Assembly: GCA_051313645.2 (NCBI GenBank)
Contig: JBNRSN020000007.1
Span: forward strand, 98,766,001 to 98,830,000
Origin: Centroscyllium fabricii
Taxonomy: Eukaryota
DNA length: 64,000 bases
Reading direction: 5' to 3'
Made by a program: the position numbers and the translations under genes. Below, in pieces: positions 3,129-43,150 of this stretch. Each line of letters begins with the position of its first letter. Position 1 is the first letter of the stretch. The notes beneath the pieces are model-generated. The model did not search any database, was not told where the DNA came from, and saw only the letters and a list, made by a program, of their open reading frames with translations.

Positions 3129-3378
3129 GGTTACCATTGTTGTATACCTGTGTGCAAAGATGCTGCTGGGAGCCAGGTCAGCCACACCCCCGACTCCTCC
3201 CCCCAGGTGGGAGCACTATAAAGGTGTGGTCTGACCCAGCCCCTTTCATTCCTGTATGTGATCTGCCGAGGAGATTAGCTCCATTCTTTATTAATTAAAA
3301 GCCTTGTATTAACGGTAACTACGAGTCGTCTTTAATTAAGTTAGCGACCACGCTACAATTTTAATTAATAATTTTACA

Positions 3379-7866: not shown

Positions 7867-8128
7867 TGTGGTAACCCTTATATGGGTAACCCTTATATGG
7901 GTTACCATTGTTGTATACCTGTGTGCAAAGATGCTGCTGGGAGCCAGGTCAGCCACACCCCCGACTCCTCCCCCCAGGTGGGAGCACTATAAAGGTGTGG
8001 TCTGACCCAGCCCCTTTCATTCCTGTATGTGATCTGCCGAGGAGATTAGCTCCATTCTTTATTAATTAAAAGCCTTGTGTTAACGGTAACTACGAGTCGT
8101 CTTTAATTAAGTTAGCGACCATGCTACA

Positions 8129-11100: not shown

Positions 11101-11731
11101 GAACGGCCTATGCGAACGGTTCCACCGCTCAATGAAGTCATCACTACGAGCCACACTAAAGGACGCATCGTGGACCGACCGCCTTCCATGGGTTCTCCTC
11201 GGGCTGCGCTCGGCAGTCAAGAAAGAACTAAACGCCTCGGCAGCAGAGCTCGTCTACGGCCAAACTCTAACGGTGCCGGGCGAGTTCCTGGCTGAGCCCA
11301 ACGCTCCCTGGTCAGCCGACCAGTATTTAAAAGACTTCGCCAACCCGGCACGAGCTTTCCAGCCACTACCAGTGGCCCGGCACGGAGAGCCGGCAGCTCG
11401 GGTGCCGGACGACATTAAAAAAGCTAAATTTGTGTTCGTCCGGCGCGACGGACACCGATCTCCACTACAGCCACCGTACGATGGCCCCTACAGAGTGCTT
11501 CGGGCGGGAGCTAAAGCGTTTGAATTACAAATGGGCAACAGGACTGACACTGTGACAATAGACTGGCTCAAGCCGGCGCACGTTATAGCGGGTGAGACAA
11601 CGGTCCCCGCACAACCACCACAACGCGGTCGCCCTCCCGCAACAAAACCCGCCCACACTCCACCGCAGAACCAGGAGCAACAGACAACACGGTCCGGCCG
11701 CATCATCCGGCCACCCCAACGGCACACATAG
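8129..11731 (+). CDS. gag-pol: Uninterrupted remainder of the gag-pol polyprotein of element B (1200 aa)
   Basis: CHCC finger [18 protein letters not shown]; protease CDTGA; RT YLDD; RNase H TDASD; integrase HHCC, DLVGP, SDRG, GLCER; GPY motif. Confidence 0.93.
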
Positions 11732-14697: not shown

Positions 14698-15317
14698 GCT
14701 GTGAGTCTGGAGTCACATATAGGCCAGACCGGGTAAGGGCAGCAGATTTTCTTCCCTAAAGGACATCAGTGAACTAGATGGGTTTTTATGACAATCATGG
14801 TCACCATTACTGATACAGGTTGAGCACCGTTAATCTGGCACGGCGGGACCAGGCCCGTGCTGGGAAAGTGAAAATCCCGAACGATTGAAGCGTCGGTGAG
14901 CGCATGCGCAGACCATTCAAAATGGCCGCTGCGAAAGGCTGGCGGCCATTTTGAGTGGTCTGCGCATGCGCTTGTCATTCGGGGAGGCCCAGGATCGGCT
15001 CGGAGAGGCCCAGCGAGGTTGGGCTCTGACGTATCGTCAAGGTCTTCAATTAAAAGAGTCGACGCGTAGTTACCGAAACTAAAGGCTTTTAATTACTAAA
15101 GAACGGAGCTACTCTCCAGACGAACTACTGTACAGGAATGGATGGAGCCTCGGTCAGACCACACCTATACCAGGGCCTCACCTGGGGGAGGAGTCGGGGG
15201 TGTGGCTGACCTGGCTCCCAACAGAGTCACAGTAAACAGGGCTGTGCCTAACATCTGCACAGCCCATCATTAGCCATGGTGATACAGTGGTATAACTGAT
15301 ATAGAACGGTTACCACA

Positions 15318-18300
15318 TTCACCCCTTCTTAAAAACTTTGAGTCCAGGGTGGGTGAATGGATTGAACAGTTCATAATTAATCTGTCCGGCGGTCGTGTCT
15401 GCCTGGAGGACCGCCGGCGCTCCGGTGTTGGCGGCGGTGCCTCCTGGGTCAAATGGTCCGCATCTGCCGGCGCTGTGACTTCAGGTGGCGGCGGGCTCGG
15501 CTGGTCCCCGCCGTCCGGGTCGTAGTCGGGGAAACTCGGGGGCCATCGTGCGATTGGTGGTTGGTCGGCCTGCTGGCCAGCAGGAGGCGCTGCGGTGGTG
15601 TTTCCGGCCGGGGCCAGGTCCCTGATGGACACGGTGTCCTCACGCCCGTCCGGGAACTGCACGAAGGCGTAGTGCGGGTTTGCGTGTAGGAGCTGTACCA
15701 TGTCCACCAGGGGGTCCATCTTGTGGTTCCGGACATGCCTTTTAAGCAAAACCGGCCCCGGAGTCGTCAGCCATGGAGGAAGAGCTGTCCCCGAAGTCGA
15801 CCTCCTGTTAAAAGAAAAAATCAGATCGTGCGGGGTGGCGTTAGTGGCAGTACACAACAGTGAGCGAATAGAGTGCAGCGCGTCTGGGAGGACTGCCTGC
15901 CAATGGGACACTGGAAGGCCTCTGGACTTGAGGGTCAGGGTGACCGCCTTCCAGATGATCCCATTCTCCCTTTCTACCTGGCCGTTCCTCCGGGGGTTAT
16001 AACTGGTCATTCTGCTCGTAGCAACCCCTCTCTGGAGCAGAAACTGGCGCAGTTCATCGCTCATGAACGATGACCCCCCGGTCGCTATGGATGTAGCTGG
16101 GGAGACCGAAAATGGCGAACAGCGCGGTGAAGTGTTTGATCACCGTTGCGCTCGTCATGTCTGGGCAGGGGAAGGCGAATGGGAAGCGTGAAAACTCATC
16201 CACTACCGTGAGGAAGTATGAGTTGCGGTCGGTGGAAGGGAGGGGGCCTTTGAAGTCCACGCTGAGACGTTCAAAGGGGCGGGTGACCTTAATGAGGTGC
16301 GCCGTGTCTGGCCGGAAAAAGTGGGGTTTGCACTCGGCGCAGACAGGGCACTCCCGGGTCATAGCCTTGATCTCCGTAATGGAGTAGGGGAGGCTACGAG
16401 ATTTGACGAAATGGGCGAGTCTGGTGACACCCGGGTGGCAAAGGCGGTCGTGGAGGTCCTTCAGCCGGTCTAGCTGGGCACTGGCGCACGGTCCCCTGGA
16501 CAGTGCGTCCGGGGGTTCGTTGAGTTTGCCTGGTCGGTAAAGAATGTCGTACTCGTAAGTCGAGAGTTCGATCCGCCACCGCAGGATCTTATCATTCTTG
16601 ATTTTACCCCGTTGTTTATTATTAAACATAAACGCCGTTGGTCGGTGAGCAGGGTAAAACGCTTACCGGCCAGGTAATGACGCCAGTAGCGCACGGCCTC
16701 CACGATGGCCTGGGCCTCCTTTTCCACTGCTGAGTGGTGAGTTTCGGGTCCCTGTAAGGTGCGGGAGAAAAACGCTACGGGCCTGCCTGCCTGATTCAGG
16801 GTGGCAGCAAGGGCGAAGTCCGAAGCGTCACTCTCCACCTGGAAAGGGATTGGTTCATCAACAGCGAGCATGGTCGCCTTGATAATATCTTCCTTTATCC
16901 CTGCGAATGCCGTTTGGGCTTCTACAGAAAGGGGGAAGACGGCAGCCTTGAGGAGTGGTCTAGCCTTATCTGCGAACTGTGGGACCCATTGTGCATAATA
17001 GGAGAAAAATCCTAGACATCTCCTCAAGGCTTTGGGGTTGTGAGGTAGGGGCAGTTCTTGCAAGGGTCGCATACGCTGTGGGTCGGGGCCGAGGAGCCCG
17101 TTTTCCACCACGTATCCGAGGATGGCGAGCCGGGCTGTATTAAAGACACATTTGTCTTTGTTATACGTGAGATCCAGCTTAGCCGCCGTGGCGAGAAATT
17201 TTGCTAGATTGGCATCGTGGTCCTGCTGGTCGTGGCCGCAGATGGTCACGTTGTCCAGGTAAGGGAAGGTGGCCTGCAAGTCGTTTTGGTCAACCATACG
17301 GTCCATCTCCCGTTGGAACACTGACACTCCGTTGGTCACGCCAAAGGGGACCCGGAGGAAGTGGTAGAGCCGACCGTTCGCCTCGAAGGCGGTGTAGGGG
17401 CGGTCAGCTTTCCGAATCGGGAGCTGATGATACGCCGTTTTAAGGTCGATCGTAGAGAACACCTTGTACTGGGCGATCTGATTGACCATTTCTGAGATGC
17501 GGGGAAGGGGGTAGGCGTCGAGCCCGGTGTAGCGGTTGATAGTCTGGCTGTAATCGATAACCAGCCGCTGTATTTCGCCAGACTTCACCACTACAACTTG
17601 GGCGCGCCAGGGGCTGGTGCTGGCTTCAATTATCCCCTCCTTCAGCATCCGCCCGACCTCCGACCTGATAAACGTGCGAGCCCCCTCACTGTACTGCTGA
17701 CTCTTAGTGGCAATGGGTTTGCACTTCGGATCGAGGTTGGCAAACAGCGAGGGGGGGTCGATTTTCAGGGTGGAGAGGCCGCAGGCCGGGCTCCGCTTTG
17801 GGAGGAGATTGTCCCGGCTACTGACGGTGAGGGGGGGTAAGGTCCCGCCGAACTCCATTGTCACACTCCTGAAGTGGCACTGGAAATCCAAACCTAGTAA
17901 GGCTGGGGCACACAACTGTTGGAGGGTATACAATTTAAAATTACGGTACACGCGTCCCTTGATGGTGAGCGCGACGGAGCAGTAGGCGGTGATGTCCGCG
18001 GTGTGGGACTGTGAAGCTAGGGAGACTTGGTAGTTGGTGGGCAGGACCTGCAGTCCGCAGCGCCGCACTGTATCAGGGTGAATGAAACTCTCAGTGCTGC
18101 CTGTGTCGAAAAGGCAGTCAACAGTATGCTCATTAATGCTAATCGGTATTATTGAGTTAGACAGGGTATGGGGCCTGCCCTGGCTAACTCTGATTCTAGC
18201 TGCCGCAGCCCCTGCTGATCGGGGCTGTGTACAAGATGGCGTCGCCCCTGGCTCGCACATGGAGGGGTCCTGGGTACAAGATGGCGGCGCCCCTGGCTCG

Positions 18301-19616
18301 CACATGGAGGGGCCCTGGATACAAGATGGCGTCGCCCCTGGCCCGCAGCTGGTGGGGCCCCGTATACAAGATGGCGTCGCCCCTGGCTCGCACATGGAGG
18401 GGCCCTGGATACAAGATGGCGTCGCTCCTGGCCCGCAGCTGGTGGGGCCCCGTATACAAGATGGCGCCGCCCCTGGCTCGCACATGGAGGGGCTCTGGTT
18501 GCAAAATGGCGTTTCTGAGGGGACGCACGCGGTGGGGCCTTGTGAACGCGCTGGCGGCGCCCGTGATTCGCACGCAGCGAACCGCGGTGATCGGGTTGGC
18601 GGTGCCCATGATTCGCACGCAGCGGGCCGCGGTGATCGGGTTGGCGGTGCCTGTGATTCGCACGCAGCCGGCCGCGTTGGGGGGTCGCGCTTGGCCGGCC
18701 TTTGCTGCATCAGGGTGGGGGATGGGGGCGCTTGTTGTTTACCCCCGTACCGTCGCTGGATCGCGCTGCTATTGCAGCTTACCTGGTGTCTGTCGGTGCT
18801 CTCACAGGCTGCACTGTTGTACCTTGAGTTGGGCGCTGCTGGAGCTGATCTGCAGGCTTTAGCGTAGTGTCCCTTCTTTGCACACTTCTCGCAGGTCGCT
18901 GTCCTGGCTGGGCATTTCGCTCTAGGGTGCAGTCCCTAGCTGCAGAAGTAACAGCGCTTGCTTTTAACGTCTTTAATGTCTTTAGTGGCCGTCGCGGCCA
19001 TCGTGGGGGCCCCGGCCCGTGGCGCCCAGGCCTGGGCCTGTTGTGGCGCGGCCCATATGTTGTAGGCTTGCGGGTTAGTGCCGCTGTATGCCTGTAACTT
19101 GCTACGGGCCCCCTCTACCGATTTGGCTAACGTAGTCGCCTCCTCGAGGGTTAAATTGTCTCTCTCTAGTAGCCGCTGGCGGGCTTCCACACACCTCAGT
19201 CCTGTGACATAAGCGTCCCGAACGAGGAGTTCTTCCTCCTCTGCAACAGTTGTGCCTTTGCAGCCACAGGCCCGTACCAGGGCCAGGAGCGCTTGCTCAA
19301 ACTCCTCATTTGACTCACCCGGTAGCTGAGGTCTGGTCGCCAGCACATGTCGGGCGTAGACCGAATGGACTGGGCGCACGTAACATTTCTTCAGGATTAG
19401 TATAGTCCTTTCGTAGGTTGAGGCGTTCCTGACGAGGGTGAATACCCTGCTGGAGATTTTTGATCGCAGGACATGTAGCATGTCCTTGTCTGATGTAGCC
19501 TCGGCGGCTTCCATGTAGGCCTCCAGAAGGCCGAACCAGTGTTCGAAGGTAGCGGGAGCAGCAGGGTCCTGGGGACTGATGTCCAGCTTCTCAGGTTTAA
19601 CTGTGCTGCTATCCAT
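15318..19616 (-). pseudogene. gag-pol: gag-pol of element D, originally a single ORF (TAG at 18936, frameshifts near 16635 and 16075)
   Basis: ORF 18936..19616 is in frame with 16470..18710; protease FDTGS, RT YLDN, RNase H and integrase motifs; tandem arrays at about 18230-18670. Confidence 0.9.
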
Positions 19617-19767
19617 TTTAAAATAATTTAGTAATTAAAATTGACGTATCGTCAAGGTCTTCAATTAAAAGAGTCGACACGTAGTTACCGAAACTAAAGG
19701 CTTTTAATTACTAAAGAACGGAGCTACTCTCCAGACGAACTACTGTACAGGAATGGATGGAGCCTCA

Positions 19768-21181
19768 TGTAAGGGGTTTGGCAGCCGGCCTTCTCCAGGC
19801 TCGACCTAGAGTCCCTGCACCTTGCCTTGGTCCCGCGACCAGGCCTCGCACACCGGGTCCCTGTGAGCGGTTCGAAACGCTCCCCCCTACGGTTCTCGAC
19901 ACTGGGCTTATGTACAGGAGTTGTGATAGTGTAGGTAATTCCTGCCAGAACAGAGTTCCAAGAGACCAGAGATGTGATGTTTAAAACACAGTTCTTTATT
20001 ACACATTCAATACTTTACAAAAGTAGAACCAAACGTTAATCATTGTTAAAACAGGATGGAGAGGGTACGACACAACGTAACATTGGGCAAACATTAAACA
20101 GCTACACCCCAATATGCTTCCACGACACCCACCCTCCACTTCCTACACTATCCTATGTCCAGACGTGCAGAAGCGGAACACCATACTCACCATGGGCTAT
20201 GTTTACTGGGGGTTCGGGGTTCGTTGGTTGCACCTCCTTCGTCCTTCGATTAGGTAGCTGTGGAAGGGGCTCTCTCTCTCTCTCGCTCTTCCGCCTTCCT
20301 GGCTTCCTGGCACCGACTTCTGATGCAGGCAAGCACTTTTCTAGCTGATCTCTAACCGAGTGCACCTTTCTTTCTGGTTCAGACCTCCACTGCTTCTCTC
20401 CAGCTCTTACTTTTAAATCGATACTGTTACTGTTTCTGGCTATTAACTGCCATCAGCTCTTTGCTTGAGCTCTCGTTCTTCAGTTCGTCAGCCTGTTAGC
20501 TTCCTAGCTCATCAGTTACCCTCTGTCCGACTCCCTCTGTCCGTTGTGTTTTCTTAGTTCAAAACCCTGGGCCGTTATACCCCCGCACCTCGCGCTTATC
20601 TGCGCGCCAGATCTAGCGTGCCCTTTTGTCTTTAAGTGAGGTTAGATCTGTTCTTTTCTGTTCTGATGGTCGCCTAACAGACTGGTAATCTCCTGACCAC
20701 CTGTAAACGTTTTTCCTGTTAAGCGATCTCTGTGCATAAGCTTTTTCCCATCACCTGCCCTCGGGTTTCTATGGGCCTTTTGTTTTAGTTGACGAGGTTA
20801 CCTCGGTGCCCTTTGTCCATCTGCTGGACACCGGCGCCTCCCAGTCTGGGGACTCGATCTCGTTATGTGGGCTATTCATGACCAATATCCAAAGTCTATC
20901 TGGTCATGATTTTGCAGAAAATGTGTGTGTGGGGCTGTTTTAGCTTCACTCTGCCAGGCTGATCACGTGGTCGGCGAAGCCATTTTGTGGCCCCTGCTTG
21001 TGTCTGGTTTTCTTTTAAAAGTCTCTGGCTATGGCCCTTTTCCCTGGTACAGAGCCACATCTCCATACCCAGGGTGCCCCCACATTATCGGTTTTAACAA
21101 AAGCATGTTGCTTGCAGTTCTGTGTTATGAAAAGTGTTGATAGTAGTTCTGGATCCGGGAAACATCAGCTCAAATCTTACA
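19768..21181 (-). repeat. 3' LTR of the gag/env element
   Basis: Direct repeat of 26909-28322; minus-strand TATAA near 20577 and AATAAA near 19997. Confidence 0.95.
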
Positions 21182-21604
21182 GTCCCTCCTGTTTGATTCC
21201 ACACACCCCAATGTGTTGCAATCAAATTAAATTACGGTTGAGCTATGTTTTCCCGGTTGTCCACGTCCAGACCCCCACTATTTTACCTAAACTAGTGCCC
21301 AAGTACTTAACGTACAGTCCCCATCTTTCAGGCCGACCTATACATTACTGCCTTCCCGGGTCACTATATACACATAAACATTCCCCAGATTTGTGCCCGT
21401 CTTTCAAAACTTACACCCCTTTTCCTCGGCTGATGCCGTCCACCAACCGTCCTCCTGTCGGTGATCGTTTTATTGGGGCACAAAGATCAATACATACACC
21501 ACAAAAAGAAAATACCTTCAAAACTTAAACGTAAATATCTATACAGTGTTTTCAATGAGACTCTCTCACAGAGAGGTAAAATTGGAGGTGACTTCTTCCC
21601 CATG

Positions 21605-24079
21605 TCAGCAGCTTGTCTCTGCCTCCGGTTCGTCCGCCCTGACGTACCGGTCCCTCCATTCCCCTCTGCCTATCCGGCTGCGAAGCCGCTGTCTCCCTCT
21701 GCACTGTCCACATATTAAATAGGACACTATAAAAGCTTGCACCACCACTAACACGTGTGATGCAATTCTAACCCAAGATGGGACTTCTATATTATTGAAC
21801 AGGTCCCACCACGGGGGAACCACTATCTCCAATATGTCTGCCCCAATCTTATCTGTCTTCTGTTCCAGGGTGTAAAAATGCTTTTGCGATACGGCAACTG
21901 CTTTTAAAAGTGTTGTGAGGTGTTCGGGGAGAGGGGGTATGGCATACCCAAAATGCGCCACAAAGTGCTGCAGGTTGGTGAAATTCTCCCTTACAGTGAT
22001 GTGAACCGTGGAGGGTTCAGGTATGGGGACGATTCGCAGCTGTGCCACTTGAACCTCTGCCTGTGGTTTAAAACAGAAGCTGCTGTCACTCACCGGACAT
22101 AGGCCATGCTGCCCGTGTCGGTAGTGTTGCGCTGCAGTGGTAATACAGTAAGTACCACCCCCTATGTATGCCACCTGTGGAGGGACATGGTCCTGTGCCA
22201 TCGCCTCCATAGTGCAATTCATAGGCTTCGCGCCAACAGCCCTGAACCCACACTACTGTACCCGCAAGACATTCAAGTGCTGGGGACACAATATTATGTG
22301 TGCTCCCCTGCTCCGGCACCCCGAGAGGTCTGTACCTGTCATCGACTGCTCCCAGCGGACAACATACGGTGGGACCTCTGCGTAGCGAACGTGTACTCCC
22401 CCCTGAATGACTCCGATGTTCTCCACCCTGTATACCGGTGCGGGCCTTGCCGTCTTGCCCAACACCGGCATCCGTACCACCACTCCCATGACCGTGTAAT
22501 TAGAACGCCCACAGTCAATGGGAACCGGGTACGCCTCTGACGCCAACCTGAGCTGACACGGTGTAAGCGCGTTCTGAAAAGGCTGCAGTGCTTGGAGGTG
22601 TTTGTTACTGATCCAGGACGGGACCAACCCTTGCTTCAGGTCCTCAAGGTTGCTGCGGCCCTCGCCCAGCAACCACGCCCCGTACAGAACGCACACCTCG
22701 TTCTGCGCAGCCTGGTCAGAAGCGTTCCGATCTTCCTTGATCAGAGCGTTCACCGTGCTCGCGTGTCTTTCTAATTCCGCGATTATCTCGCGCAGGTGCA
22801 GTGTCATCGCCTGGTCCTCATGGAGCTCCGACCCGACGACCTTGTTCTCCTCCGTGAGGATGTCCTTCAACTGCGACTTTAAACCGTTTATCTGGGTCTG
22901 CAGCTCCATGGTGTCGAGAGCGTTGACCACAGAGGCTCCGGTGTTAAAGCCCGTGAACACATCATTCACTACACCCCTCTTTTGTCTCCCCGTTTGGCCC
23001 CATGTCTCTGGCCCTTGGCGGTACAGGCTTGCCTTGTCTACACTGGCCAGGTCAAATTCGTAAAACTGCCTGTACATATTTGCCAGCAGCACCTGATATA
23101 ACCTTTCGGTCTCCTTGGGGCACCACTCCGGCAACCTTACCTCGGTGAGGTTTAAAATCACCGAGGCCACCGTGTAGTGCACCCCCTGGTATAATACCTG
23201 GCCACCCTGGCCATTCTCGGGCCCCCGTGTAGTCTTGGGGCACCCACCCTCCTGTGCTGCTGCCCGCCTCGGTGTGGGAGGTGTTGTGCGTGGTCGGGTG
23301 ACGAGTTCAGTGGCGTTAACTGGGCTCGGGGAAAATGGGACCCCACAGGCTTGTGAGCTAACATCCCACCTCATCCCCTTACCACCATCTTGCCACTGCT
23401 GGTGGAAAAATATGCTGTTCCCTGTGGGGCACAAATACCTGGAACCCCACATACACACATAAATTCCCTCATCAGGCTCCCACCACTTGTCCCAACAGAC
23501 ACTCAAACTTTCATTAGTCCCAAAGACTGTCCTGTGAGTGTTGTTGTCCAGCTTTTCCCAATTCACGGTTGAGTTGGCCATGGTCCGGCTGGTTTTACGT
23601 AGCCACCACCTCAACCGGGTGTCGACCTTTCCGGTGCACCTCAGGCAAATCCTCTTGCCGGCCGTGACGCTGATCTTCTGGGCGACGATCTTCACTTTTG
23701 GGCACAATAACTCAGTGTCCCTGAAGAAAAATCCTGGGGTGCCGAGATACTCAGAAGCGTTCGATCCCAGCCACCCTGGCCATCGCCCCTGGTGGAAGAA
23801 AACGGCAGCTCCTTCGGTTGTCCGTTGTCCCGTCCCATCGGTCGCGGTAGGCGCGGTGCTTCCCGAACATCCGTATACCACGATGTCCTGGGTGCGGCCC
23901 CGATAGGCCCACCCGCATCCGATCGCCAGGAAGATGATTCCCCATCTTAGTGCCTCGTTCGGTTCCTGAAACAGATAACGTTGGTATAGCCAGCCTCTCC
24001 AAGAGCGCTTGGCTGTGTTAAAGACCCATGCTTGGGTCTGATGACCCCAGCCCGTACCCCGCATCTGCACCCTGGACAC
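21605..24079 (-). CDS. env: Envelope / class I fusion glycoprotein, about 820 codons with one in-frame TAG at 22253-22255
   Basis: ORFs 22253..24079 and 21605..22222 share a frame; signal-like WGIIFLAIGCGWA; Ig-like C..W..DEGIYVC; furin site RQKR; fusion-peptide-like GVVNDVFTGFNTGASVVNAL; heptad repeat; Cys-rich ectodomain; TM IASHVLVVVQAFIVSYLIC. Confidence 0.85.
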
Positions 24080-24183
24080 ATTGCCCCTTTTACCTAACCC
24101 AGTAAAATATAACTTAACTTACCACTAAACTTCTTAAAACTACCTAGCCTATAATACAGCGCCGCCCTTCCAAGGCGGCCAGG

Positions 24184-25137
24184 CTAATCCTGATCCAGGC
24201 TGCAGCGCGCCGCTGTCTGTGGCTTGGCCGCGCTGCCTGCATCCTTTGAAGTGCCGCAGCCTGTGGCTGCCTGCCAGTGACCATCTTCCTTTCTCCAACC
24301 CAACAAACTGCCTGTCGCTGGGGCCCCGTACCATTCCGGCCAAAGCTTCCTCAGTTGAGGTATCCTGCTGGACCTACGGAGAGTCACCTCAGGCACGGCC
24401 CCCTGGGCAGCCCGGTTGAGGACAGGTTCCCGCCGTGCCGCAGCTCGGGTGAACCCCGCAGCTGCCGACCCCGGCCCTTCCTCATCCAGCACTACCCCCT
24501 TGGGGTTGGGTATATCCGCGGCTTCCGACCTCACCCTGTCTGTGACAGGTGGTGAGTCTCCGCCCGCTACCCCCGCCTCCCTGGTGCTTGAGTCGAGGAT
24601 GCTCTCGTCATCCCCCTCCGACTCCCACTCCTCCGTCATGAGATTCAGCCCCAGACCGAGCTGATCAGGCTCGTCTTCGTCTGAGTCCCATCCAAACCGG
24701 GACGCCCTCCATTGCTGGGAAACGTCTTCCTCCTTTCCCCTCACGCAGGCAGCTTTACCCACCTGCGTGACCTTCCTCATTTTTGGCTGTGATTCTCTAT
24801 CCACAGGGCTTGCCCCTGTGACTGACCCCTGTTTTACCTGCTGCAGCTGACCTGTTGCAGCCTTTGAGGTTTTAAACTCCCTTTTGACTTCAGCTGCCTG
24901 GGTTTTTGCCTCCAGGCTAAACAGCTTGCACCTGCTGTGAAGCATTTTAAAAACCTTGAGTTCTTCCTCTAAACTGCTAGCTTTTGCCGCTAGCCTGTCA
25001 TTCTCTTTCCTTAAAGCCCGTTCCACGACCTGAGCTCCTGCAACCTGGCACCCCAGGAAGTCCTCCAAATTACCGGAGGTCTCTTCCTCTGCATGTCTTT
25101 CCGAGGGAACCGGGTTGACAGGCTGCGCGGGCTCCAG
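24184..25137 (-). CDS. ORF2: coiled-coil plus acidic/disordered protein in frame after the gag TGA (possible readthrough extension)
   Basis: Open from 25137 to the stop at 24184 in the gag frame; no protease, RT or integrase catalytic motifs. Confidence 0.6.
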   Translation of the reverse strand: MEPAQPVNPVPSERHAEEETSGNLEDFLGCQVAGAQVVERALRKENDRLAAKASSLEEELKVFKMLHSRCKLFSLEAKTQAAEVKREFKTSKAATGQLQQVKQGSVTGASPVDRESQPKMRKVTQVGKAACVRGKEEDVSQQWRASRFGWDSDEDEPDQLGLGLNLMTEEWESEGDDESILDSSTREAGVAGGDSPPVTDRVRSEAADIPNPKGVVLDEEGPGSAAAGFTRAAARREPVLNRAAQGAVPEVTLRRSSRIPQLRKLWPEWYGAPATGSLLGWRKEDGHWQAATGCGTSKDAGSAAKPQTAARCSLDQD

Positions 25138-26904
25138 TCACTGGGGAATGTCCGGTGTCCCCCCCGCACCCGGGGAGCCGGTGGCGACTGCAACCTTCCC
25201 TTGTGCTTCCATGAGGGACCGCATCACCTCGATCATTGACTCCAACGTTTCGGGCTTAACGGCTATCTCAGCGCGCGGAGCGGGGTTGGCCCTAACCTCC
25301 TTGGGGAAAGCCCTGCAGTCTTTCCTCCAGTGCCCCACCTTACCGCACCTAAAACACTTGGACTGTGTGGCAGGGTTGCCCTCCTGACGCCATTCCTTCG
25401 GGGCCGATGTAACGGCCTCCGCTACGTGCACCTTCCCCTTGACCGACTTGGTGGCGGTGCTCCGGGTGTTCCGATACCCCACGGTGAGGCGGTCCAAAAC
25501 CGCGTCCTCCGTGGTGTTCGTTGGGTCGAACCAGGCTTTCGCCTGCTCCCGGACAGCTGCTAGGCTGTTCGTTACCAAGCACCGAAGCCACTGCGCCCTA
25601 ACATTCCCGACCAGGGCATCCCGGTTCGGGACCTGCGGGCAGCTACGTTGGTAGACCGGCCACAGTCTCGCCGCAAAAACCCTCGGAGGTTCTCCCTCCA
25701 TCTGGAGAGTTTTCCCCAAGCGGGCAAATGGACCCTCATCGTCCGTGCCTAAAACCTCCAGAACCTCTTCCCTTAACTGTTCGTAGGTTCTGGTACCCCG
25801 TTTGCTCTCATCACTGAGGCACTGAAGGAGTGAGTAGTCCAGGGAGAACAATAGCATCCTCGCCTGCTCCCCCTCGTCGCAACCATTGATTGCGGCGGTC
25901 TGCTCAACCTCCTGAAAATGCAGTGAAGGGTCCCCCGATTCGGACAGCTTCTTGACTTGCCCGACCATGGACCTCAACTGCTGGGCGCTGTGGGGCACTA
26001 TAATCTGACTTTGGACAGGCCCGGGATCCCCGTTCGCTGCGTCGGGTCCCCGCCTGGTCTCCAGCAATGGACACATCGGTGCCTGCGCCGGTTCCCTGGC
26101 CGGTCCCCACCCCTGCTCACTCTCCCCAGCGCCCCCCTTCTCCCAGGAAGCCTCATAGCTGGGGGGATCGTGATACGTGGGGGCCGAAGCCACCACGGGC
26201 ATGCACGGACCCCTTGCTGGAACCCTTGCTGCTGCCAGTGATGATCCCGCTGCGGGGTTCATAAGGCAGACCAACCCACTAGCCCTATCTAAGGCGCTGC
26301 GCAGGCTTTCGATCTCCTCCCTACAAGCCCCGTGATCAGCCCCTTCGGACCGATCCTCCAAAGCCATTTTATAGGCTGCTTTAACCCCCCGGAGAGTCTC
26401 CCCTGTGGCTCCCAACTGTTGGTCTAGGCCGGCACACCGCTGCCTAATTGCGCCCTCACTGAGCTTAGCGTCAGTGATCTGGCACTCCAACAGTTCAACC
26501 TTGGCCTCATATCGGTTGACCAAAACCCGGCGCTCCTTGTTCAAGGAGTCCAGGGCCTCGATCAACTGGAGCCCTCCCTCAGCCTTTTCACTCACCTCCT
26601 CACGGAGGTTCCCTATCTGGGCTGCCTGCGCTGCCACTACACGGTCCAGGAGCTGGACCTGCTTCTTGTAGCACGACAGCCAGACGGCCTTTTCTACCAA
26701 TTTCTTGTGCGCCTTGCTGGACGTCCACCGGATCGCTGCATCCAGTGGGCGCTTGTCTTCCAGCAACTCACACATCCATGGCTTGGTCAGATTGACCTTG
26801 CTGAACACATAGTCGGCCATGCGTTCATCTATCATATCCCTAGTTCTTACAACCGTTTCTGGCACACTATCATCCTGTTGCCAGTGTCCCTTCGTGGACG
26901 CCAT
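25138..26904 (-). CDS. gag: Gag, 588 aa, intact
   Basis: N-terminal coiled coil, PPSY late-domain-like motif, helical capsid-like region, CCHC knuckle CFRCGKVGHWRKDC. Confidence 0.88.
   Translation of the reverse strand: MASTKGHWQQDDSVPETVVRTRDMIDERMADYVFSKVNLTKPWMCELLEDKRPLDAAIRWTSSKAHKKLVEKAVWLSCYKKQVQLLDRVVAAQAAQIGNLREEVSEKAEGGLQLIEALDSLNKERRVLVNRYEAKVELLECQITDAKLSEGAIRQRCAGLDQQLGATGETLRGVKAAYKMALEDRSEGADHGACREEIESLRSALDRASGLVCLMNPAAGSSLAAARVPARGPCMPVVASAPTYHDPPSYEASWEKGGAGESEQGWGPAREPAQAPMCPLLETRRGPDAANGDPGPVQSQIIVPHSAQQLRSMVGQVKKLSESGDPSLHFQEVEQTAAINGCDEGEQARMLLFSLDYSLLQCLSDESKRGTRTYEQLREEVLEVLGTDDEGPFARLGKTLQMEGEPPRVFAARLWPVYQRSCPQVPNRDALVGNVRAQWLRCLVTNSLAAVREQAKAWFDPTNTTEDAVLDRLTVGYRNTRSTATKSVKGKVHVAEAVTSAPKEWRQEGNPATQSKCFRCGKVGHWRKDCRAFPKEVRANPAPRAEIAVKPETLESMIEVMRSLMEAQGKVAVATGSPGAGGTPDIPQ
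26886..26903 (-). promoter_or_regulatory. Primer-binding site, tRNA-Arg(TCG) type
   Basis: TGGCGTCCACGAAGGGAC, 5 nt after the LTR; 17/18 to TGGCGACCACGAAGGGAC, the complement of vertebrate tRNA-Arg(TCG) 3' end as recalled. Confidence 0.8.
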
Positions 26905-26908
26905 AATC

Positions 26909-28322
26909 TGTAAGGGGTTTGGCAGCCGGCCTTCTCCAGGCTCGACCTAGAGTCCCTGCGCCTTGCCTTGGTCCCGCGACCAGGCCTCGCACACCGGGTC
27001 CCTGTGAGCGGTTCGAAACGCTCCCCCCTACGGTTCTCGACACTGGGCTTATGTACAGGAGTTGTGATAGTGTAGGTAATTCCTGCCAGAACAGAGTTCC
27101 AAGAGACCAGAGATGTGATGTTTAAAACACAGTTCTTTATTACACATTCAATACTTTACAAAAGTAGAACCAAACGTTAATCATTGTTAAAACAGGATGG
27201 AGAGGGTACGACACAACGTAACATTGGGCAAACATTAAACAGCTACACCCCAATATGCTTCCACGACACCCACCCTCCACTTCCTACACTATCCTATGTC
27301 CAGACGTGCAGAAGCGGAACACCATACTCACCATGGGCTATGTTTACTGGGGGTTCGGGGTTCGTTGGTTGCACCTCCTTCGTCCTTCGATTAGGTAGCT
27401 GTGGAAGGGGCTCTCTCTCTCTCTCGCTCTTCCGCCTTCCTGGCTTCCTGGCACCGACTTCTGATGCAGGCAAGCACTTTTCTAGCTGATCTCTAACCGA
27501 GTGCACCTTTCTTTCTGGTTCAGACCTCCACTGCTTCTCTCCAGCTCTTACTTTTAAATCGATACTGTTACTGTTTCTGGCTATTAACTGCCATCAGCTC
27601 TTTGCTTGAGCTCTCGTTCTTCAGTTCGTCAGCCTGTTAGCTTCCTAGCTCATCAGTTCCCCTCTGTCCGACTCCCTCTGTCCGTTGTGTTTTCTTAGTT
27701 CAAAACCCTGGGCCGTTATACCCCCGCACCTCGCGCTTATCTGCGCGCCAGATCTAGAGTGCCCTTTTGTCTTTAAGTGAGGTTAGATCTGTTCTTTTCT
27801 GTTCTGATGGTCGCCTAACAGACTGGTAATCTCCTGACCACCTGTAAACGTTTTTCCTGTTAAGCGATCTCTGTGCATAAGCTTTTTCCCATCACCTGCC
27901 CTCGGGTTTCTATGGGCCTTTTGTTTTAGTTGACGAGGTTACCTCGGTGCCCCTTGTCCATCTGCTGGACACCGGCGCCTCCCAGTCTGGGGACTCGATC
28001 TCATTATGTGGGCTATTCATGACCAATATCCAAAGTCTATCTGGTCATGATTTTGCAGAAAATGTGTGTGTGGGGCTGTTTTAGCTTCACTCTGCCAGGC
28101 TGATCACGTGGTCAGCAAAGCCATTTTGTGGCCCCTGCTTGTGTCTGGTTTTCTTTTAAAAGTCTCTGGCTATGGCCCTTTTCCCTGGTACAGAGCCACA
28201 TCTCCGTACCCAGGGTGCCCCCACATTATCGGTTTTAACAAAAGCATGTTGCTTGCAGTTCTGTGTTATGAAAAGTGTTGACAGTAGTTCTGGATCCGGG
28301 AAACATCAGCTCAAATCTTACA
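26909..28322 (-). repeat. 5' LTR of the gag/env element
   Basis: Direct repeat of 19768-21181, followed by the PBS and gag. Confidence 0.95.
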
Positions 28323-28496
28323 GTCGGTCAGACCACACCTATACCGGGGCCTCAGCTGGGGGAGGAGTCGGGGGTGTGGCTGACCTGGCTCCCAACAGAG
28401 TCACAGTAAACAGGGCTGTGCCTAACATCTGCACAGCCCATCATTAGCCATGGTGATACAGTGGTATAACTGATATAGAACGGTTACCACAGGCTC

Positions 28497-29116: not shown

Positions 29117-32100
29117 TGTAACCTTCAATTACGTTCTCGGAGTCGAGTAGTAGATTAGAACAATCAGGCTTTTATTCACTACAGTTAGATTACACACCAG
29201 CAAGCTGACTGTCCCCTGGAATGGCACGGGGGATGGGGGCAGTCACTTATATACCTCCTCCAGCGGGGGAGGAGTCGTGGGCGGAGCCGGGAATGTTCCA
29301 GGTATCATCTCGCAGTGGAATACAGTACAGGTATAGGTTACATGGTGATACATGGTGATTAGCTATATACAGTGATATACACGTTTATCACATTCACCCC
29401 TTCTTTAAAACGAAAGTACAGCGGGGTGAAAAAGACTAATAATTACAAGAATGATCACAGGGAAAAAAAAAATATATTACAAACAGGGTTCTTATGACTA
29501 CAGGTTTAGTCTATCAGGCGGTTTCGTTGTCCGCGTTGATCTTCGCACCGCTGGTGGTGCCTGTGGTGTTCGTGGTCGTGGAGCGGCTGGTTGTGTCGGT
29601 TGCTCCATTGATGCCGGTCGACTAGTGGTGGTTGTTGTATTATTTCTGGGTGGCAGTGGTGCCCTTATTCTGACAGCAGGGGGCGCGTTCTCTCCTTCGT
29701 CCTCTGACTCTAGGGGGCGCGCGTTGTGGATCCAAGCTTGGGGCCCGGTCGTGCTGCTCGCAGGTGCCTTGTGGACATACTGGGGTACTGGGCCCACGTG
29801 TCGGGGTGTGTACTTCGGCTTCGGCGGCATGGGGAGCGTCACAGGATGTTTTGGGTGCGCGGCCTGCTGGGCGGGGCTTCTTTGGAGCTCGGGCTGCCTG
29901 GCGGGGCTGGGTTTTGGGACTCCTGCTGGGGCTAGGTCCTTTATGGACACGGTGTCCTCCCTCCCGTCGGGGAACGCTATGTAAGCGTACTGGGGATTGG
30001 CGTGCAGGAGGTGGACCCGTTCGACTAGGGGGTCTGCCTTGTGTCCCCTCACATGCTTCCGAAGCAGGACCGGTCCCGGAGATAGTAGCCACGATGGTAG
30101 CGAGGTCCCGGAAGCTGACTTCCTGGGGAAGGCAAAAAGTCTTTCGTGAGGGGTGGCATTGGTGGCAGTACACAGGAGGGACCGGATGGAGTGGAGTGCT
30201 TCAGGGAGAACGTCCTGCCATCGGGTGACTGGGAGGTCTTTAGACCGTAGGGCTAACTGGATGGCTTTCCAGACCGTGGCGTTCTCCCTCTCTACCTGTC
30301 CGTTCCCCCGGGGGTTGTAGCTGGTAGTCCTGCTAGTCGCGATGCCTTTCGCTAGCAGGAACTGGCGCAGCTCGTCGCTCATAAAAGAGGCCCCCCGGTC
30401 ACTATGGATATAGTTGGGGTACCCGAACAGGGAGAAGATGCTACTGAGAGCCTTGATGACGGTGGCGGAGGTCATGTCCTGGCAGGGGATGGCGAAGGGG
30501 AAGCGGGAGTACTCGTCGATGACGTTGAGGAAGTACACATTCCTATTGGATGAGGGAAGGGGTCCTTTGAAATCGACACTGAGTCGTTCAAAGGGGCGAG
30601 TGGCCTTAATCAAGTGCGCCGGTCTGGCCGGTAAAAGTGCGGCTTGCACTCCGCGCAGACCTGGCAGTTGCTGGTCATGGTCTTGACCTCCTCGATAGAG
30701 TAGGGGAGGTTGCGGGACTTAACAAAGTGAACCAACCTGGTGACCCCCGGGTGGCAGAGGTCATTGTGAAGGGTTTGGAGACGGTCAGCCTGTGCGCTGG
30801 CACAGGTACCGCGGGATAGGGCGTCTGGGGGTTCGTTAAATATCCCGGGCCGGTACAAGATATCATAATTGAACGCGGATAGTTCAATTCTCCACCTCAA
30901 TATCTTGTCGTTCTTGATTTTACCCCGTTCCTTGTTATTAAACATGAATGCGACTGATCGTTTGTCAGTCAGTAGGGTAAAACGTTTGCCGGCCAGGTAG
31001 TGCTTCCAGTGCCGCACTGCTTCAACAATGGCCTGGGCCTCCTTTTCAACTGAGGAATGGTGGGTTTCGGGGCCTTGGAGGGTACGTGAAAAGAAGGCCA
31101 CGGGTCTGCCCGCCTGGTTAAGGGTGGCGGCCAGGGCAAAGTCCGATGCATCGCTCTCTACCTGAAATGGGACGGACTCATCCACAGCGTGCATCGTGGC
31201 TTTGGCAATATCGTTTTTAATTCTGCAGAATGCCGAGTTGGCTTCTGCAGAAAGTGGAAAAGAGGTCGATTTAAGTAGTAGGCGAGCTTTGTCCGCATAA
31301 TTGGGGACCCACTGGGCATAATACGCGAAAAATCCCAAACACCGTTGAAGAGCTTTGGGGGTGTGGGGGAGGGGAAGCTCCATGAGGGGGCGCATGCGGT
31401 CCGGGTCTGGACCGATGACTCCATTCTCCACCACGCTGCCGAGGATGGCCAGGCGGGTGGTGTTAAACACACATTTCTCCTTATTGTATGTTAAGTTCAG
31501 GGTTTTGGCCGTGTGGAGAAATTTTTGGAGATTGGCGTTATGGTCCTGCTGATCATGGCCGCAGATGGTCACATTATCAAGATACGGGAAAGTGGCTCGC
31601 AGCCCGTACCGATCAACCATTCGGTCCATCTTCCTCTGGAAGACCGAGACCCCGTTCGTGACGCCAAACGGAACCCTAAGGAAGTGGTAGAGGCGACCGT
31701 CAGCCTCGAAGGCTGTATAAGGACGGTCCTCTGGGCGGATGGGGAGCTGGTGATAAGCCGATTTTAGATCAATCGTGGAGTACACTTTAAACTGGGCGAT
31801 TTGGTTCACCATGTCCGCTATCCGGGGGAGGGGGTAGGCATCTAGTTGGGTGAACCGGTTTATGGTCTTGCTGTAGTCCACCACCATCCTATTCTTCTCC
31901 CCGGTTTTAACTACTACTACCTGCGCTTTCCAAGGGCTATTACTGGCCTCTATGACCCCCTCTTTTAGGAGGCGCTGCACCTCAGATTTTATAAATACCA
32001 TGTCCCCAGCACTGTAGCGCCTACTTTTGGTGGTGACGGGCTTATAGTCTGGGGTGAGGTTGGCAAAGAGAGATGGAGGGGCAACCTTAAGGGTTGAGAG

Positions 32101-33758
32101 GCCACAGGTAGTGTACTAGGGGTACCGCCTTGAGCCGCGGTTTCTGACCGTGAGTGAGGGAAGGGATCCGCCGAATGCCATCGTAACGCTCTGAAGGTGG
32201 CACTGAAAATCCAGTCCCAGGAGTAGGGGGGCGCAGAGCTGCGGCAGCACGTAAAAACTAAAGTCGTTAAACATTGCGCCCTGTACATTAAGCGTTACAA
32301 TACAGCGCCCGGTGACGTCAGCGGATTCCGACTTGGACGCCATCGATATTCTCTGGCGCGCAGGGATTACTCTAAGGGAGAGGCGCTTTACAGTATTTTG
32401 GTGAATAAAACTTACTGTGCTCCCACTGTCGAACAGGCACACCACTTCTTCCCCGTTGACTTCCACCGGCATCATCGATTTCTCCAGTGGTTGAATCTTC
32501 CTCTGGTCTAGGCTCATGGATGCTAACACCGGGTCCTCCGAGTTGTCTTGATCCGGAGAGTAGTCCTCCAAGTCTGCTCCCCAAGATGGCTGCCGCCATG
32601 TGGTGTACTGTGGAGGTGGAGGCTGAGTCCAAGATGGCCGCTGTTGCTGCTGCTGCCACGAGGGCTGCTGAGTGGGGGATGGGTGAGCCCAATATGGCTG
32701 CTCCCCTGTTCTACACGCGGCACTGCCCAGTTTGGATTTTGCGCTAGTGTTTTTACAGACCTTCGCATAATGTCCCTTCTTGTCGCATTTTGAGCAGGTC
32801 GCTTCTCTAGCAGGGCAGCTGCGTCTTGAGTGCTGAGGTTGTCCACAAAAGTAGCATTTAGCTTTAGCGTGGGCAGCTGTGAGTAATTCTTCTGCCGGTC
32901 GTTGCGCCAGCACTGTCCAAGATTGCGGGGCTGGGCCCGTATAGTTACTTGAATATGAGGATAGGTCCATTGATGCGCTATCCAGCGCGTGCCCCAAGTC
33001 TGTAGTCGCCTGTAAGTCCTGGCCGTTCTGCTCCAGCAGTCTCTGCCTGGCATAGTCCGATTTTAGGCCTGTTACATAGGCGTCTCGGATGAGGCTCTCT
33101 ACATGGACTTGAGCCGTTTGCGCTCTGCAGTCGCAGTCCCGTGCCAGAATTCTGAGGGCTCTTAGGACTCGTTATTTTGTTGCTTCCTGGTGGCGAGTAT
33201 ATGTCTCGCGTGGACTATGTTTGGTGCCCGATTATATTCCGTCTCGAGGATCCTGATGGCCTCTTGGAACGATGGGGCGTCCACTATCATCGAGTACACT
33301 TGAGGGCCCACCCGGGCATGGAGGAGTCGCCGTTTTTGCTCCTCGGTCACTATGACCGCCGCGTTGGCTCTGATGTACCCTTCGAGCATGTTTCGCCAGT
33401 GTGAGAAGGCGTTCGATGCTCCTGAAGATCGGGGATCAACTTCGAACACTGCTGGTTTAAGCATTGTGGTATCCATTTTACAGTAGTGAATAAAATTGTA
33501 ACCTTCAATTACGTTCTCGGAGTCGAGTAGTAGATTAGAACAATCAGGCTTTTATTCACTACAGTTAGATTACACACCAGCAAGCTGACTGTTCCCTGGA
33601 ATGGCACGGGGGATGGGGGCAGTCACTTATATACCTCCTCCAGCGGGGGAGGAGTCGTGGGCGGAGCCGGGTATGTTCCAGGTATCATCTCGCAGTGGAA
33701 TACAGTACAGGTGATATATGGTGATTAGCTATATACAGTGATATACACGTTTATCACA
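29117..33758 (-). mobile_element. Gypsy element E (YLDN family, divergent subfamily); LTRs 29117-29392 and 33497-33758
   Basis: Perfect 5-bp TSD gctac (29112-29116 / 33759-33763); LTRs differ by a 14-bp indel and a few substitutions; PPT aagaaggggtgaa. Confidence 0.93.
29498..33476 (-). pseudogene. gag-pol: gag-pol of element E with about three frameshifts
   Basis: ORFs 33162..33476 (gag), 32116..32997 (knuckles, FDSGS protease), 30610..32001 (RT YLDN, RNase H), 29498..30649 (integrase). Confidence 0.9.
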
Positions 33759-42203: not shown

Positions 42204-42649
42204 TACATGTTAGCTAATAGTGGTTTTACAACTAAAATGCTTTTGGCTAAATAAATAAGTAAGTAAATTTTATTGTCACATAAATGAACACATTCAATTA
42301 GTGAAATGCCTACTGCTATTCCACGTGCTAGATAACAATTAACAACAAAAAAACCACTAGAAACATAGCACGCCCAGAACCCGCAAGACGTCAAGCCATT
42401 CTCCGGCGCCATCGTTGAGGGTCCGCTAGTGCTCCGGCTCCAGAGCTCGATGTTATTAACTAACAACCATAACGATAACTGTAACGATAACTGCTGATTT
42501 GAGGTCCTCAATGATTACGGGAGTGAAAAAAACTAGAGGCCTGATGTCCGACCGTCGGTCCGAGGACAGACCCCAATGAAACGCCGGATCACCACAGGAG
42601 TGAAGTCACTGAGACCCGACCCGCGGCCCGGCGAACTTTGAGCTCCCAC

Positions 42650-43150
42650 CCACGGGAGTGGAGAGGCCCGACCACGGCCCTGCGAACTTCGAGCTCCCGC
42701 CCACGGGAGTGGAGAGGCCCGGCCATGGCCTGACGAAACTCCAAGCAGCGCCCACGGGAGTAGAGAGGCCCGACCATGGCCCGACGAAACTCCAAGCTCC
42801 GCCCATGGGAGTGGAGAGGCCCGACCATGGCCCGACGAAACTCCAAGCTCCGCCCACGGGAGTGGAGAGGCCCGACCATGGCCCGACGAAGTTCGAGCTC
42901 CCGCCCACGGGAGTGGAGAGGCCCGACCATGGCCCAACAAAACTCCAAGCTCCACCCACGGGAGTGGAGAGGCCCGACCATGGCCCGACGAAACTCCAAG
43001 CTCCGCCCACGGGAGTGGAGAGGCCCGACCATGGCCCGACGAACTTCGAGCTCCCGCCCACGGGAGTGGAGAGGCCCGACCACGGCCCTGCGAACTTCAA
43101 GCACCCGCCCACGGGAGTGGAGAGGCCTGACCACGGCCCGATGAAACTCG
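42650..43150. repeat. 51-bp minisatellite, about 10 units
   Basis: Unit ccacgggagtggagaggcccgaccatggcccgacgaaactccaagctccgc; appears as 17-aa repeats in several frames. Confidence 0.92.

What the first reader, a model, noticed from the sequence alone, without database searches (positions are those of the whole stretch)
19768..28322. Young pol-less retrovirus-like element encoding only Gag, an accessory ORF and an F-type envelope
Seen: 1414-bp LTRs about 99.4% identical by eye, PBS, PPT-like tract, intact 588-aa Gag, a 317-codon ORF2 and an env frame with a single stop. No protease, RT, RNase H or integrase motif is visible between the LTRs. Known: the env layout (furin site, fusion peptide, long heptad repeat, Cys-rich beta region, C-terminal TM about 430 aa after cleavage) fits paramyxo/pneumo/baculovirus F-type fusogens rather than the short TM subunit of gamma-type env. 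Lokiretroviruses are the vertebrate retrovirus lineage reported with Mononegavirales-F-like env. Inference: this is a helper-dependent satellite retrovirus that supplies structural proteins and borrows Pol in trans, and it was mobile recently.
Basis: partly seen in the sequence, partly recalled or inferred. Interest (0 to 1): 0.88.

Follow-up and report, generated by a model that had tools for sequence, protein, structure and literature searches.

The report
Pol-less parasite of a shark retrovirus
This is one of about 230 young copies of an endogenous retrovirus, likely of a shark or ray, whose enzyme gene has been swapped for a short unrelated piece while its capsid and envelope genes (the envelope predicted to fold like paramyxovirus F) were kept, and it likely multiplies by borrowing the enzymes of near-identical complete copies in the same genome.

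Summary
Minus strand, 1414-bp LTRs with 9 mismatches, tRNA-Arg PBS, gag, 317-codon ORF2, env with one stop, no pol. It is no one-off deletion: 202-227 genome sites carry the same pol-replacing cassette, and 48 of 61 two-LTR copies have their own 4-bp TSD (median LTR divergence 0.28%). The helper exists: at least 178 RT-marker sites; sampled copies read gag-TGA-pol-env at 97-99% identity, use the same PBS and share alleles. ORF2 is no separate accessory gene: about 100 foreign codons are fused in frame to the last ~213 codons of helper Pol, behind the gag stop. The Env model matches paramyxo/pneumovirus F (Foldseek E 6e-11, Z about 12). It is not a lokiretrovirus: RT+tether rejects that clade (AU p 0.004); it sits with unnamed frog/coelacanth ERVs near snakehead retrovirus. 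That it supplies structural proteins is unshown: Gag and ORF2 vary neutrally, env is weakly constrained. The youngest wave switched primer tRNA and is mostly pol-less; the cassette junction also appears at ~94% in a second organism. This scan earlier noted similar F-type/Ig envelopes in other shark genomes, not the pol-less form. Verdict: new variant of known non-autonomous ERV morphs.

The parts
26909..28322 (-). 5' LTR, 1414 bp, TG...CA
19768..21181 (-). 3' LTR, 1414 bp, 9 mismatches to the 5' LTR
26886..26903 (-). Primer-binding site, tRNA-Arg(TCG) type, 5 nt from the LTR; one mismatch to the family's usual PBS
25138..26904 (-). gag: N-terminal helical/coiled-coil-like region, capsid, one CCHC knuckle; ends in TGA. 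First ATG overlaps the PBS; Met24 (26835) is the conserved start (inferred)
25121..25209 (-). 5' part of the cassette: gag end and first ~6 codons after the stop, homologous to but only ~60% identical with the helper; likely from another member of the clade
24833..25120 (-). Foreign part of the cassette (~96 codons), standing where the helper has 3663 bp of pol; no source found
24184..24832 (-). Helper Pol C-terminal acidic tail (post-integrase, ~213 codons), ~99% identical to the helper; completes ORF2 (25137-24184)
21605..24118 (-). env frame (first ATG 24064); one TAG at 22255-22253 and a 15-nt in-frame gap near 23205 in this copy; 823 aa in unbroken natural copies
23437..23692 (-). Possible Ig-like domain in the Env N-terminal part (weak)
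   Evidence: not resolved in the model (pLDDT <50)
22976..22987 (-). Furin-type site RQKR, the only R-x-[KR]-R in Env, followed by a hydrophobic peptide and long helices
23831..23845 (-). PBS-like sequence inside env; junction point of three independent env-only derivatives
21182..21194 (-). Purine-rich tract before the 3' LTR (PPT-like)
19764..19767 (+). Left copy of the decayed 4-bp target duplication (right copy 28323-28326); target is a young gypsy element

Best explanation
The element is a non-autonomous, pol-replaced morph of a young endogenous retrovirus that likely spreads by being packaged and reverse-transcribed with Pol made by its pol-bearing sister copies. Shown: the helper reads gag-TGA-PR-RT-tether-RNaseH-IN-tail-env; in the morph a ~380-bp cassette replaces the gag end and all enzyme domains but keeps the frame into the Pol tail; both forms share LTR ends, PBS, gag and env at 97-99% and were active over the same span; copies integrated independently and recombine. 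Inferred: the cassette came in by template switching from another member of the clade (its first 90 bp are a diverged gag end), and the morph has since copied itself in trans. Intact gag and env are likely a result of youth and exchange with the helper rather than a service to it; env may be weakly selected. ORF2 would be made only by readthrough of the gag TGA as a Gag-ORF2 fusion (untested). The latest wave uses tRNA-Arg(CCG) instead of tRNA-Arg(TCG) and is dominated by the morph, as expected of a parasite outcompeting its helper. The virus is a basal canonical retrovirus of the snakehead-retrovirus/OVEX1-like grade with an F-type Env.
For: Copy number: cassette 27-mers 202 exact and 227 within 3 mismatches; RT 27-mer 178 exact; reversed-pattern controls 0. 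37 of 39 best gag matches and 39 of 39 further cassette hits have the same junctions. 48 of 61 two-LTR copies have exact 4-bp TSDs, median LTR divergence 0.28%; helpers 7 of 10 and 0.43%. Helper Pol domains by Pfam. Between-form distance (gag 1.5%, env 0.75%) is about the same as within the morph (1.4%, 0.74%), with no fixed difference outside the cassette. Recombination: four-gamete conflicts in 57% and 73% of non-CpG site pairs within the two PBS groups, LD decay p 0.002 in group A; L066 regained 239 bp of helper integrase sequence; three env-only copies arose separately at a PBS-like site. PBS-B copies are younger (median 0.14%, n 30, against 0.42%, n 39; p 1e-5); the first 40 PBS-B hits in contig order are 37 pol-less, 3 env-only, 0 pol-bearing. 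Shared non-synonymous changes observed/expected: morph gag 1.05, ORF2 1.6, env 0.69; helper enzymes 0.47. Precedent for central-segment swaps and takeover by defective morphs: PMC10924933 (passages).
Against: Trans-complementation itself is not observed; no RNA holder was listed. ORF2 is open in 70 of 76 copies, more than gag (50 of 76) or env (40 of 72) even allowing roughly for length, and the gag stop is TGA-CTG in 77 of 77 copies with a stable downstream fold (z -2.6), which a functional readthrough product would also give. Only 1 of 15 sampled PBS-A helpers has all three ORFs open against 26 of 71 morph copies, so the morph could be the larger source of Gag and Env. The pooled LD-decay test was not significant (p 0.79) and group B only p 0.06. 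RT alone did not reject a clade with loki-type sequences (AU p 0.17), nor did IN (p 0.15). No named foamy or ERV-L sequence was in the trees, and in the RT+tether tree SnRV grouped with gamma/epsilon-like rows, not with the helper.
Confidence: 0.8

Rival explanations
1. A cooperative, two-part virus: the pol-less form is a long-lived satellite that is the main source of Gag and Env, and makes a functional Gag-ORF2 readthrough protein in place of Gag-Pol, while the longer form mainly supplies Pol.
For: ORF2 open in 70 of 76 copies and in frame with the Pol tail; TGA-CTG in 77 of 77; env shared non-synonymous deficit 52 against 75.6 expected; few sampled helpers fully open; the 3' cassette junction is bridged at ~94% identity by a contig from a second organism (X2 record 10), so the cassette is older than the present burst or moved between hosts with its helper.
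Against: Gag and both parts of ORF2 show no deficit of shared non-synonymous changes (1.05, 1.6, 1.6); shared env frameshifts occur in 2-4 copies each; helpers encode their own gag and env; the helper's stop context has no comparable fold (z +1.9); the second organism rests on two samples of one study.
Confidence: 0.15
2. The element is a lokiretrovirus satellite, like zebrafish BHIKHARI.
For: F-type Env with RXKR site, dual RNase H, coiled-coil Gag N-terminus and NYNRIN-named relatives are all lokiretrovirus features. RT-only and IN-only AU tests do not reject the grouping.
Against: Helper RT reads LPQGF/QYVDD, while published Loki-Lch and four database proteins with its motif read CPFGY/[IV]YVDD; identity 32-35% to those, 46% to SnRV, 49-54% to frog/coelacanth elements; RT tree separates them 95/99 and 100/97; RT+tether AU p 0.004; the nearest frog/coelacanth proteins' motifs are absent from the part of the loki supplement that was held.
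Confidence: 0.04
3. A single post-insertion deletion, or copies spread by segmental duplication or assembly error.
For: Some copies are tandem or duplicated (L048/L049, L057/L058, L149); the window copy has no perfect TSD.
Against: Over 200 dispersed sites, distinct TSDs, identical junctions, foreign rather than simply deleted sequence; the junctions stand in single contigs of two DNA runs; the window's TSD is explained by the empty site.
Confidence: 0.01

Closest known systems
Bovine ERVK[2-1-LTR] C/D pair, MusD/ETn, KoRV-A/recKoRV (PMC10924933, passages)
   Same: [quoted passage not shown]
   Different: Bovine D-type has no intact ORF; here whole gag and env and an in-frame ORF are kept and only the enzyme domains are gone; different retroviral class and host.
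Zebrafish BHIKHARI Bik-1/Bik-2 (10.1101/2024.03.25.586437, passages)
   Same: Young pol-less fish ERVs with an intact coiled-coil Gag, needing a partner for Pol.
   Different: Bik elements are lokiretrovirus relatives, gag-only (Bik-2 has neither pol nor env) and no pol-bearing Bik-1 is in the reference genome; here env is kept and the helper is abundant.
Snakehead retrovirus (SnRV) and chicken OVEX1, clade Huo / class III grade (PMC2717909, PMC6001957, PMC12193657, PMC13517186; passages)
   Same: Coiled-coil Gag with one zinc knuckle (SnRV), pol by readthrough of the gag stop, large env, similar RT (46% to the SnRV-matching P0041).
   Different: TGA rather than TAG stop; no SnRV-type accessory ORFs seen; nearer to unnamed frog and coelacanth ERVs than to SnRV; sister relation to SnRV not supported.
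Lokiretroviruses (PMC7947760, main text parts 1-3 of 4 and parts of the supplement)
   Same: F-like Env with RXKR, dual RNase H, coiled-coil ('smc') in front of the capsid.
   Different: RT motifs and RT+tether phylogeny exclude it; none of the five cartilaginous fish rows found in their Table S2 is starred as positive.
Foamy virus Env and paramyxo/pneumovirus F (PMC11468914, passages)
   Same: Same F-type class I fold: profile hit to foamy gp130 TM (8rm1, E 6e-4), structural Z 8.5 to it and about 12 to henipavirus/hPIV3 F.
   Different: Foamy Gag has no zinc knuckle and Pol is made separately (recalled); this Env has a possible Ig-like domain ahead of the F core.
TERV of ruffed grouse (as described in PMC2717909, passages)
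   Same: Defective ERV devoid of pol with LTRs, gag and env sequence.
   Different: TERV has only a truncated env TM region and alpharetrovirus-like gag and LTRs.

Membership tests
Non-autonomous ERV morph (helper-dependent) | Lacks the enzymes for its own replication | tested here: met
Non-autonomous ERV morph (helper-dependent) | Many independent integrations with the same defect | tested here: met
   202-227 sites; 48 of 61 with own TSD
Non-autonomous ERV morph (helper-dependent) | A co-resident pol-bearing element with matching LTR ends and PBS, active in the same period | tested here: met
Non-autonomous ERV morph (helper-dependent) | Direct proof of packaging and copying in trans | not testable with these tools
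   only indirect: recombination and shared alleles
Lokiretrovirus | RT falls in the clade sister to canonical retroviruses | tested here: not met
   (RT+tether AU p 0.004); RT alone p 0.17; loki rows were identified by motif match to Loki-Lch, not by name
Lokiretrovirus | Env similar to Mononegavirales F with RXKR site | tested here: met
   no PF00523 hit by sequence
Lokiretrovirus | Dual RNase H (tether plus RH) | tested here: met
   helper Pol; shared with all retroviruses
Lokiretrovirus | Integrase closest to CGIN1/NYNRIN | tested here: inconclusive
   relatives are named NYNRIN-like; IN tree unresolved; CGIN1 itself not in the tree
SnRV/OVEX1-like (clade Huo, class III grade) | RT groups with SnRV-related ERVs | tested here: inconclusive
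   46% to SnRV-matching P0041; clade with it not rejected for RT (p 0.5) but not recovered for RT+tether; no named ERV-L or foamy rows
SnRV/OVEX1-like (clade Huo, class III grade) | pol in the gag frame behind a suppressible stop | tested here: met
   TGA in 19 of 19 helpers, pol in frame; readthrough itself untested
SnRV/OVEX1-like (clade Huo, class III grade) | Gag with N-terminal coiled coil and a single zinc knuckle | tested here: inconclusive
   one CCHC met; coiled coil judged from sequence only, no fold was run for Gag
F-type class I fusogen | Shared F core fold with long heptad helices and beta domains | tested here: met
   model pLDDT 58.7 overall, mostly 60-90 over the core; Foldseek E 6e-11 to hPIV3 F, TM 0.5 by target; VIA Z 12.4, 335 aligned, rmsd 5.9
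F-type class I fusogen | Trimer formation and fusion activity | not testable with these tools
   not run

The most novel reading that the evidence does not exclude
A persistent satellite retrovirus of cartilaginous fish: a pol-replacing cassette has travelled with its helper across host species, keeps the gag readthrough site so that a Gag-ORF2 decoy (foreign helical domain plus the helper's Pol tail) is made in place of Gag-Pol, supplies much of the F-type Env, and recently escaped ahead of its helper by switching primer tRNA. That would be a functionally two-part retrovirus rather than a decaying defective.
Probability: 0.15. Interest if true: 0.85.

Novelty: new variant of a known kind. Interest (0 to 1): 0.6.

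Why it matters
It is an unusually complete natural record of helper-parasite dynamics in a retrovirus: roughly 230 pol-less and at least 180 pol-bearing copies under about 1% apart, with recombination, a primer-tRNA switch, takeover of the youngest wave by the defective form and repeated env-only by-products, all readable in one genome. Known defective morphs mostly lose their ORFs; this one keeps gag and a full env, which makes the open question of whether defective ERVs pay anything back to their helpers testable. It also shows an F-type Env, possibly with an Ig-like front domain, in a canonical, non-loki, non-foamy retroviral lineage shared by sharks, rays and frogs, so F-like Env cannot be used to call lokiretroviruses.

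Tried and rejected
Single-sequence AlphaFold of Env failed (pLDDT 33); the alignment-based model was used instead. Pfam and PDB sequence searches with single Env sequences found no fusion family. The source of the foreign cassette was not found: no hit in the 159 loci, the window or the stored proteins, Atlas gave only unnamed clusters at 0.87-0.90, and a 3-mismatch genome scan gave about the same count as the exact one, so no large close donor family; a more diverged donor is not excluded. Raw pN/pS suggested purifying selection on gag (0.38-0.47 shared against 0.65 single) but this vanished after correcting for CpG and transition bias. The pooled LD-distance test was flat; the within-group test was chosen afterwards. 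Expression: no RNA holder listed; X1 and X2 are only guessed to be RNA. The first idea that the missing TSD meant a recombinant of two insertions was rejected. A paper on cartilaginous-fish foamy viruses (PMC9972966) was not held; ERV-Spuma.0-Sca of the catshark (PMC10699275, parts 1-2 of 4 read) groups with AciFLERV, whose RT motifs differ from ours by eye, but its sequence was not compared. Eight literature searches (listings seen) showed no report of this pol-less form; Repbase/Dfam and closed journals were not searchable, and the loki supplement was held only to page 300 of 318.
Full report
Observation. The window holds an 8555-bp LTR element on the minus strand at 19768-28322. The LTRs are 1414 bp with 9 mismatches. 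Inside are a PBS, gag (588 codons from the first ATG, one CCHC knuckle), a 317-codon frame directly behind the gag TGA, an env frame with one TAG and a purine tract. No enzyme domain is found. The flanks differ, but 7 of 7 paralogous copies of the gypsy element it sits in show the empty site, which makes the flanks a 4-bp duplication with one change on each side.

It is a family. The genome G000 is 7.2 Gb. A 27-mer from the middle of ORF2 has 202 exact sites, a second one 227 within 3 mismatches; controls were 0. I fetched the 39 best gag matches other than the window: 37 have the window's layout and 2 carry pol. I then fetched 39 cassette hits in contig order from the first 100 listed: all 39 have the same junctions, one with 239 extra bases of helper integrase. 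Of 77 pol-less copies (window included) 61 have two LTRs, median divergence 0.28%, and 48 of these 61 have an exact 4-bp TSD; gag from Met24 is open in 50 of 76, ORF2 in 70 of 76, env in 40 of 72. The first 37 were chosen for gag similarity; in the unbiased 39 the counts are 19 of 38, 37 of 39 and 18 of 37. With the rate of 0.5e-9 assumed for catshark in PMC10699275 the median age is about 3 Myr, with the 2.2e-9 used in PMC7947760 under 1 Myr; several copies have identical LTRs.

The helper. An RT 27-mer has 178 exact sites. I fetched the first 20; 19 show gag-TGA-pol and one is a fragment. For statistics I dropped that fragment and two segmental duplicates and added the two earlier pol-bearing copies (n 19). 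Pol reads PR, RT, tether RNase H, RNase H, integrase, SH3-like end and an acidic tail. Helpers share LTR ends, the PBS and 97-99% of gag and env with the pol-less form; median LTR divergence 0.43% (10 copies), gag open in 6 of 18, pol in 10 of 18, env in 9 of 16, all three in 1 of 15.

What ORF2 is. Identity to the helper falls at window 25209, stays near 60% to 25121, is lost to 24833 and returns to about 99% at 24832. The first 90 bp are a diverged gag end: after the stop the morph reads LEPAQP, the helper QQPAQP, two related pol-bearing families LKPAQP and LRPALP. So a cassette from another member of the clade likely replaced 3663 bp of pol and joined in frame to the last ~213 codons of Pol. 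Its ~96 foreign codons have no identified source. The stop is TGA-CTG in 77 of 77 copies and TGA-CAA in 19 of 19 helpers; UGA followed by C is the readthrough context listed for alphaviruses, and UGA readthrough is listed for some aquatic retroviruses (PMC13517186, passages). Readthrough here is inferred.

Dynamics. The forms are not separated by any fixed difference outside the cassette, and distances between them equal those within the morph. Within PBS groups 57% and 73% of non-CpG site pairs break the four-gamete rule; LD falls with distance in group A (p 0.002) and weakly in B (p 0.06), while the pooled test was flat (p 0.79). Two PBS types match genomic tRNA-Arg(TCG) and tRNA-Arg(CCG) genes. 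The CCG type has 89 exact sites and is younger (median 0.14% against 0.42%, p 1e-5). Its first 40 sites in contig order are 37 pol-less, 3 env-only and no pol-bearing copy; 3 pol-bearing ones were found further on, two of them picked because they lay next to RT hits. The env-only copies join the PBS to a PBS-like site inside env and are each closer to different full copies (13-15 mismatches) than to one another (21-28), so they arose separately, likely by a faulty second strand transfer. All this fits copying by reverse transcription in shared particles.

Does it pay the helper back? After correcting for mutation classes, shared non-synonymous changes in the morph are 63 against 59.8 expected in gag, 11 against 6.9 and 33 against 20.4 in the two parts of ORF2, and 52 against 75.6 in env (P 0.04 and 0.02 for its halves, not corrected for multiple tests); helper enzymes give 10 against 21.2 (P 0.006). 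So only env shows a weak constraint. Against a purely passive reading: ORF2 is rarely broken, and a contig from a second organism bridges the 3' cassette junction at about 94% identity (X2 record 10; two samples, one study). The two DNA runs, which may be the source sample, hold both junctions in single contigs.

Env. Relatives come from skate, sawshark, bamboo shark, smooth-hound and frogs, the closest at 82-85% from a skate, so the host is likely a cartilaginous fish. A 39-sequence profile hits foamy virus gp130 (E 6e-4); Atlas features match PF00523 and Baculo_F clusters at 0.93. The model from 43 sequences (mean pLDDT 58.7; first 206 residues unresolved) matches hPIV3, RSV, NDV and henipavirus F (E down to 6e-11; Z 12.4) and, among predicted viral proteins, lispivirus, baculovirus F, WEHV-1 and WDSV Env and feline foamy Env. 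The N-terminal part weakly resembles Ig domains (12 of 14 PDB hits at E 0.2-1.5 are antibodies, TCRs or Robo); two earlier notes of this scan report like envelopes in other shark genomes.

Classification. Lokiretroviruses are defined by RT position (PMC7947760). Four database proteins carry the Loki-Lch RT motif and one matches the SnRV RT printed in that supplement. The helper RT is 32-35% identical to the former, 46% to SnRV and 49-54% to unnamed frog and coelacanth elements. The RT tree places it with canonical retroviruses (95/99), apart from the loki-type clade (100/97); forcing it with loki is rejected for RT+tether (p 0.004) but not for RT alone (0.17) or IN (0.15). Gag layout and stop readthrough resemble SnRV and OVEX1 (PMC2717909), the clade Huo of PMC6001957, but the exact place is open, as no named foamy or ERV-L rows were available.

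Verdict. The pattern is known from cattle, mouse and koala ERVs (PMC10924933) and from BHIKHARI; keeping whole gag and env plus an in-frame cassette, the primer switch and the possible cross-species persistence make it a new variant worth follow-up.

Noticed in passing
L136, L137, L138 (G000 C711 and C723); window 23831-23845 is the matching site: Env-only derivatives: LTR, PBS, then env from a PBS-like internal site, LTR. Three separate origins; two have their own 4-bp TSD.
   Followed up: yes
L066: Pol-less copy that regained 239 bp of the helper's integrase end in frame (ORF2 396 codons): a back-recombinant.
   Followed up: partly
L048/L049, L057/L058, L040, L149: Tandem arrays of the pol-less element sharing LTRs (period about 7.15-7.3 kb), up to four units on contig C991.
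   Followed up: no
L035, L046, L089: A related pol-bearing family (gag ~70%, pol ~79% DNA identity) nested with this one in both directions; its Pol has a longer, repeat-expanded acidic tail.
   Followed up: partly
window 15270-19767 and 28323 onward: The target is a young gypsy element; 39 other sites match 287 bp of the flank at about 100%. More gypsy copies at about 3100-11700, 29500-33200 and 54600-62200, one with a LINE RT inserted in frame at 55222-58377.
   Followed up: partly
helper copies H090-H126, L037, L041: Many helper LTRs carry an extra ~170 bp near LTR position 705 that most pol-less LTRs lack; PBS-B copies have a distinct LTR subtype (94-95% to the window).
   Followed up: no
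window 24184-24832: The Pol tail shows an excess of shared non-synonymous changes (33 against 20 expected), clustered at a few codons; unexplained.
   Followed up: partly
window 23437-23692: Ig-like sequence pattern at the front of Env; a bamboo shark relative is annotated 'Ig-like domain-containing protein'.
   Followed up: partly
P0027, P0028 (sawshark gene models): Pieces of this Env are annotated as N-terminal parts of host Niban-1-like and cadherin-related proteins; probably annotation fusions, not checked.
   Followed up: no
window 49800-52400; 42574-43236; 43728-44259: A long G-rich degenerate repeat and two minisatellites (51 and 38 bp units).
   Followed up: no
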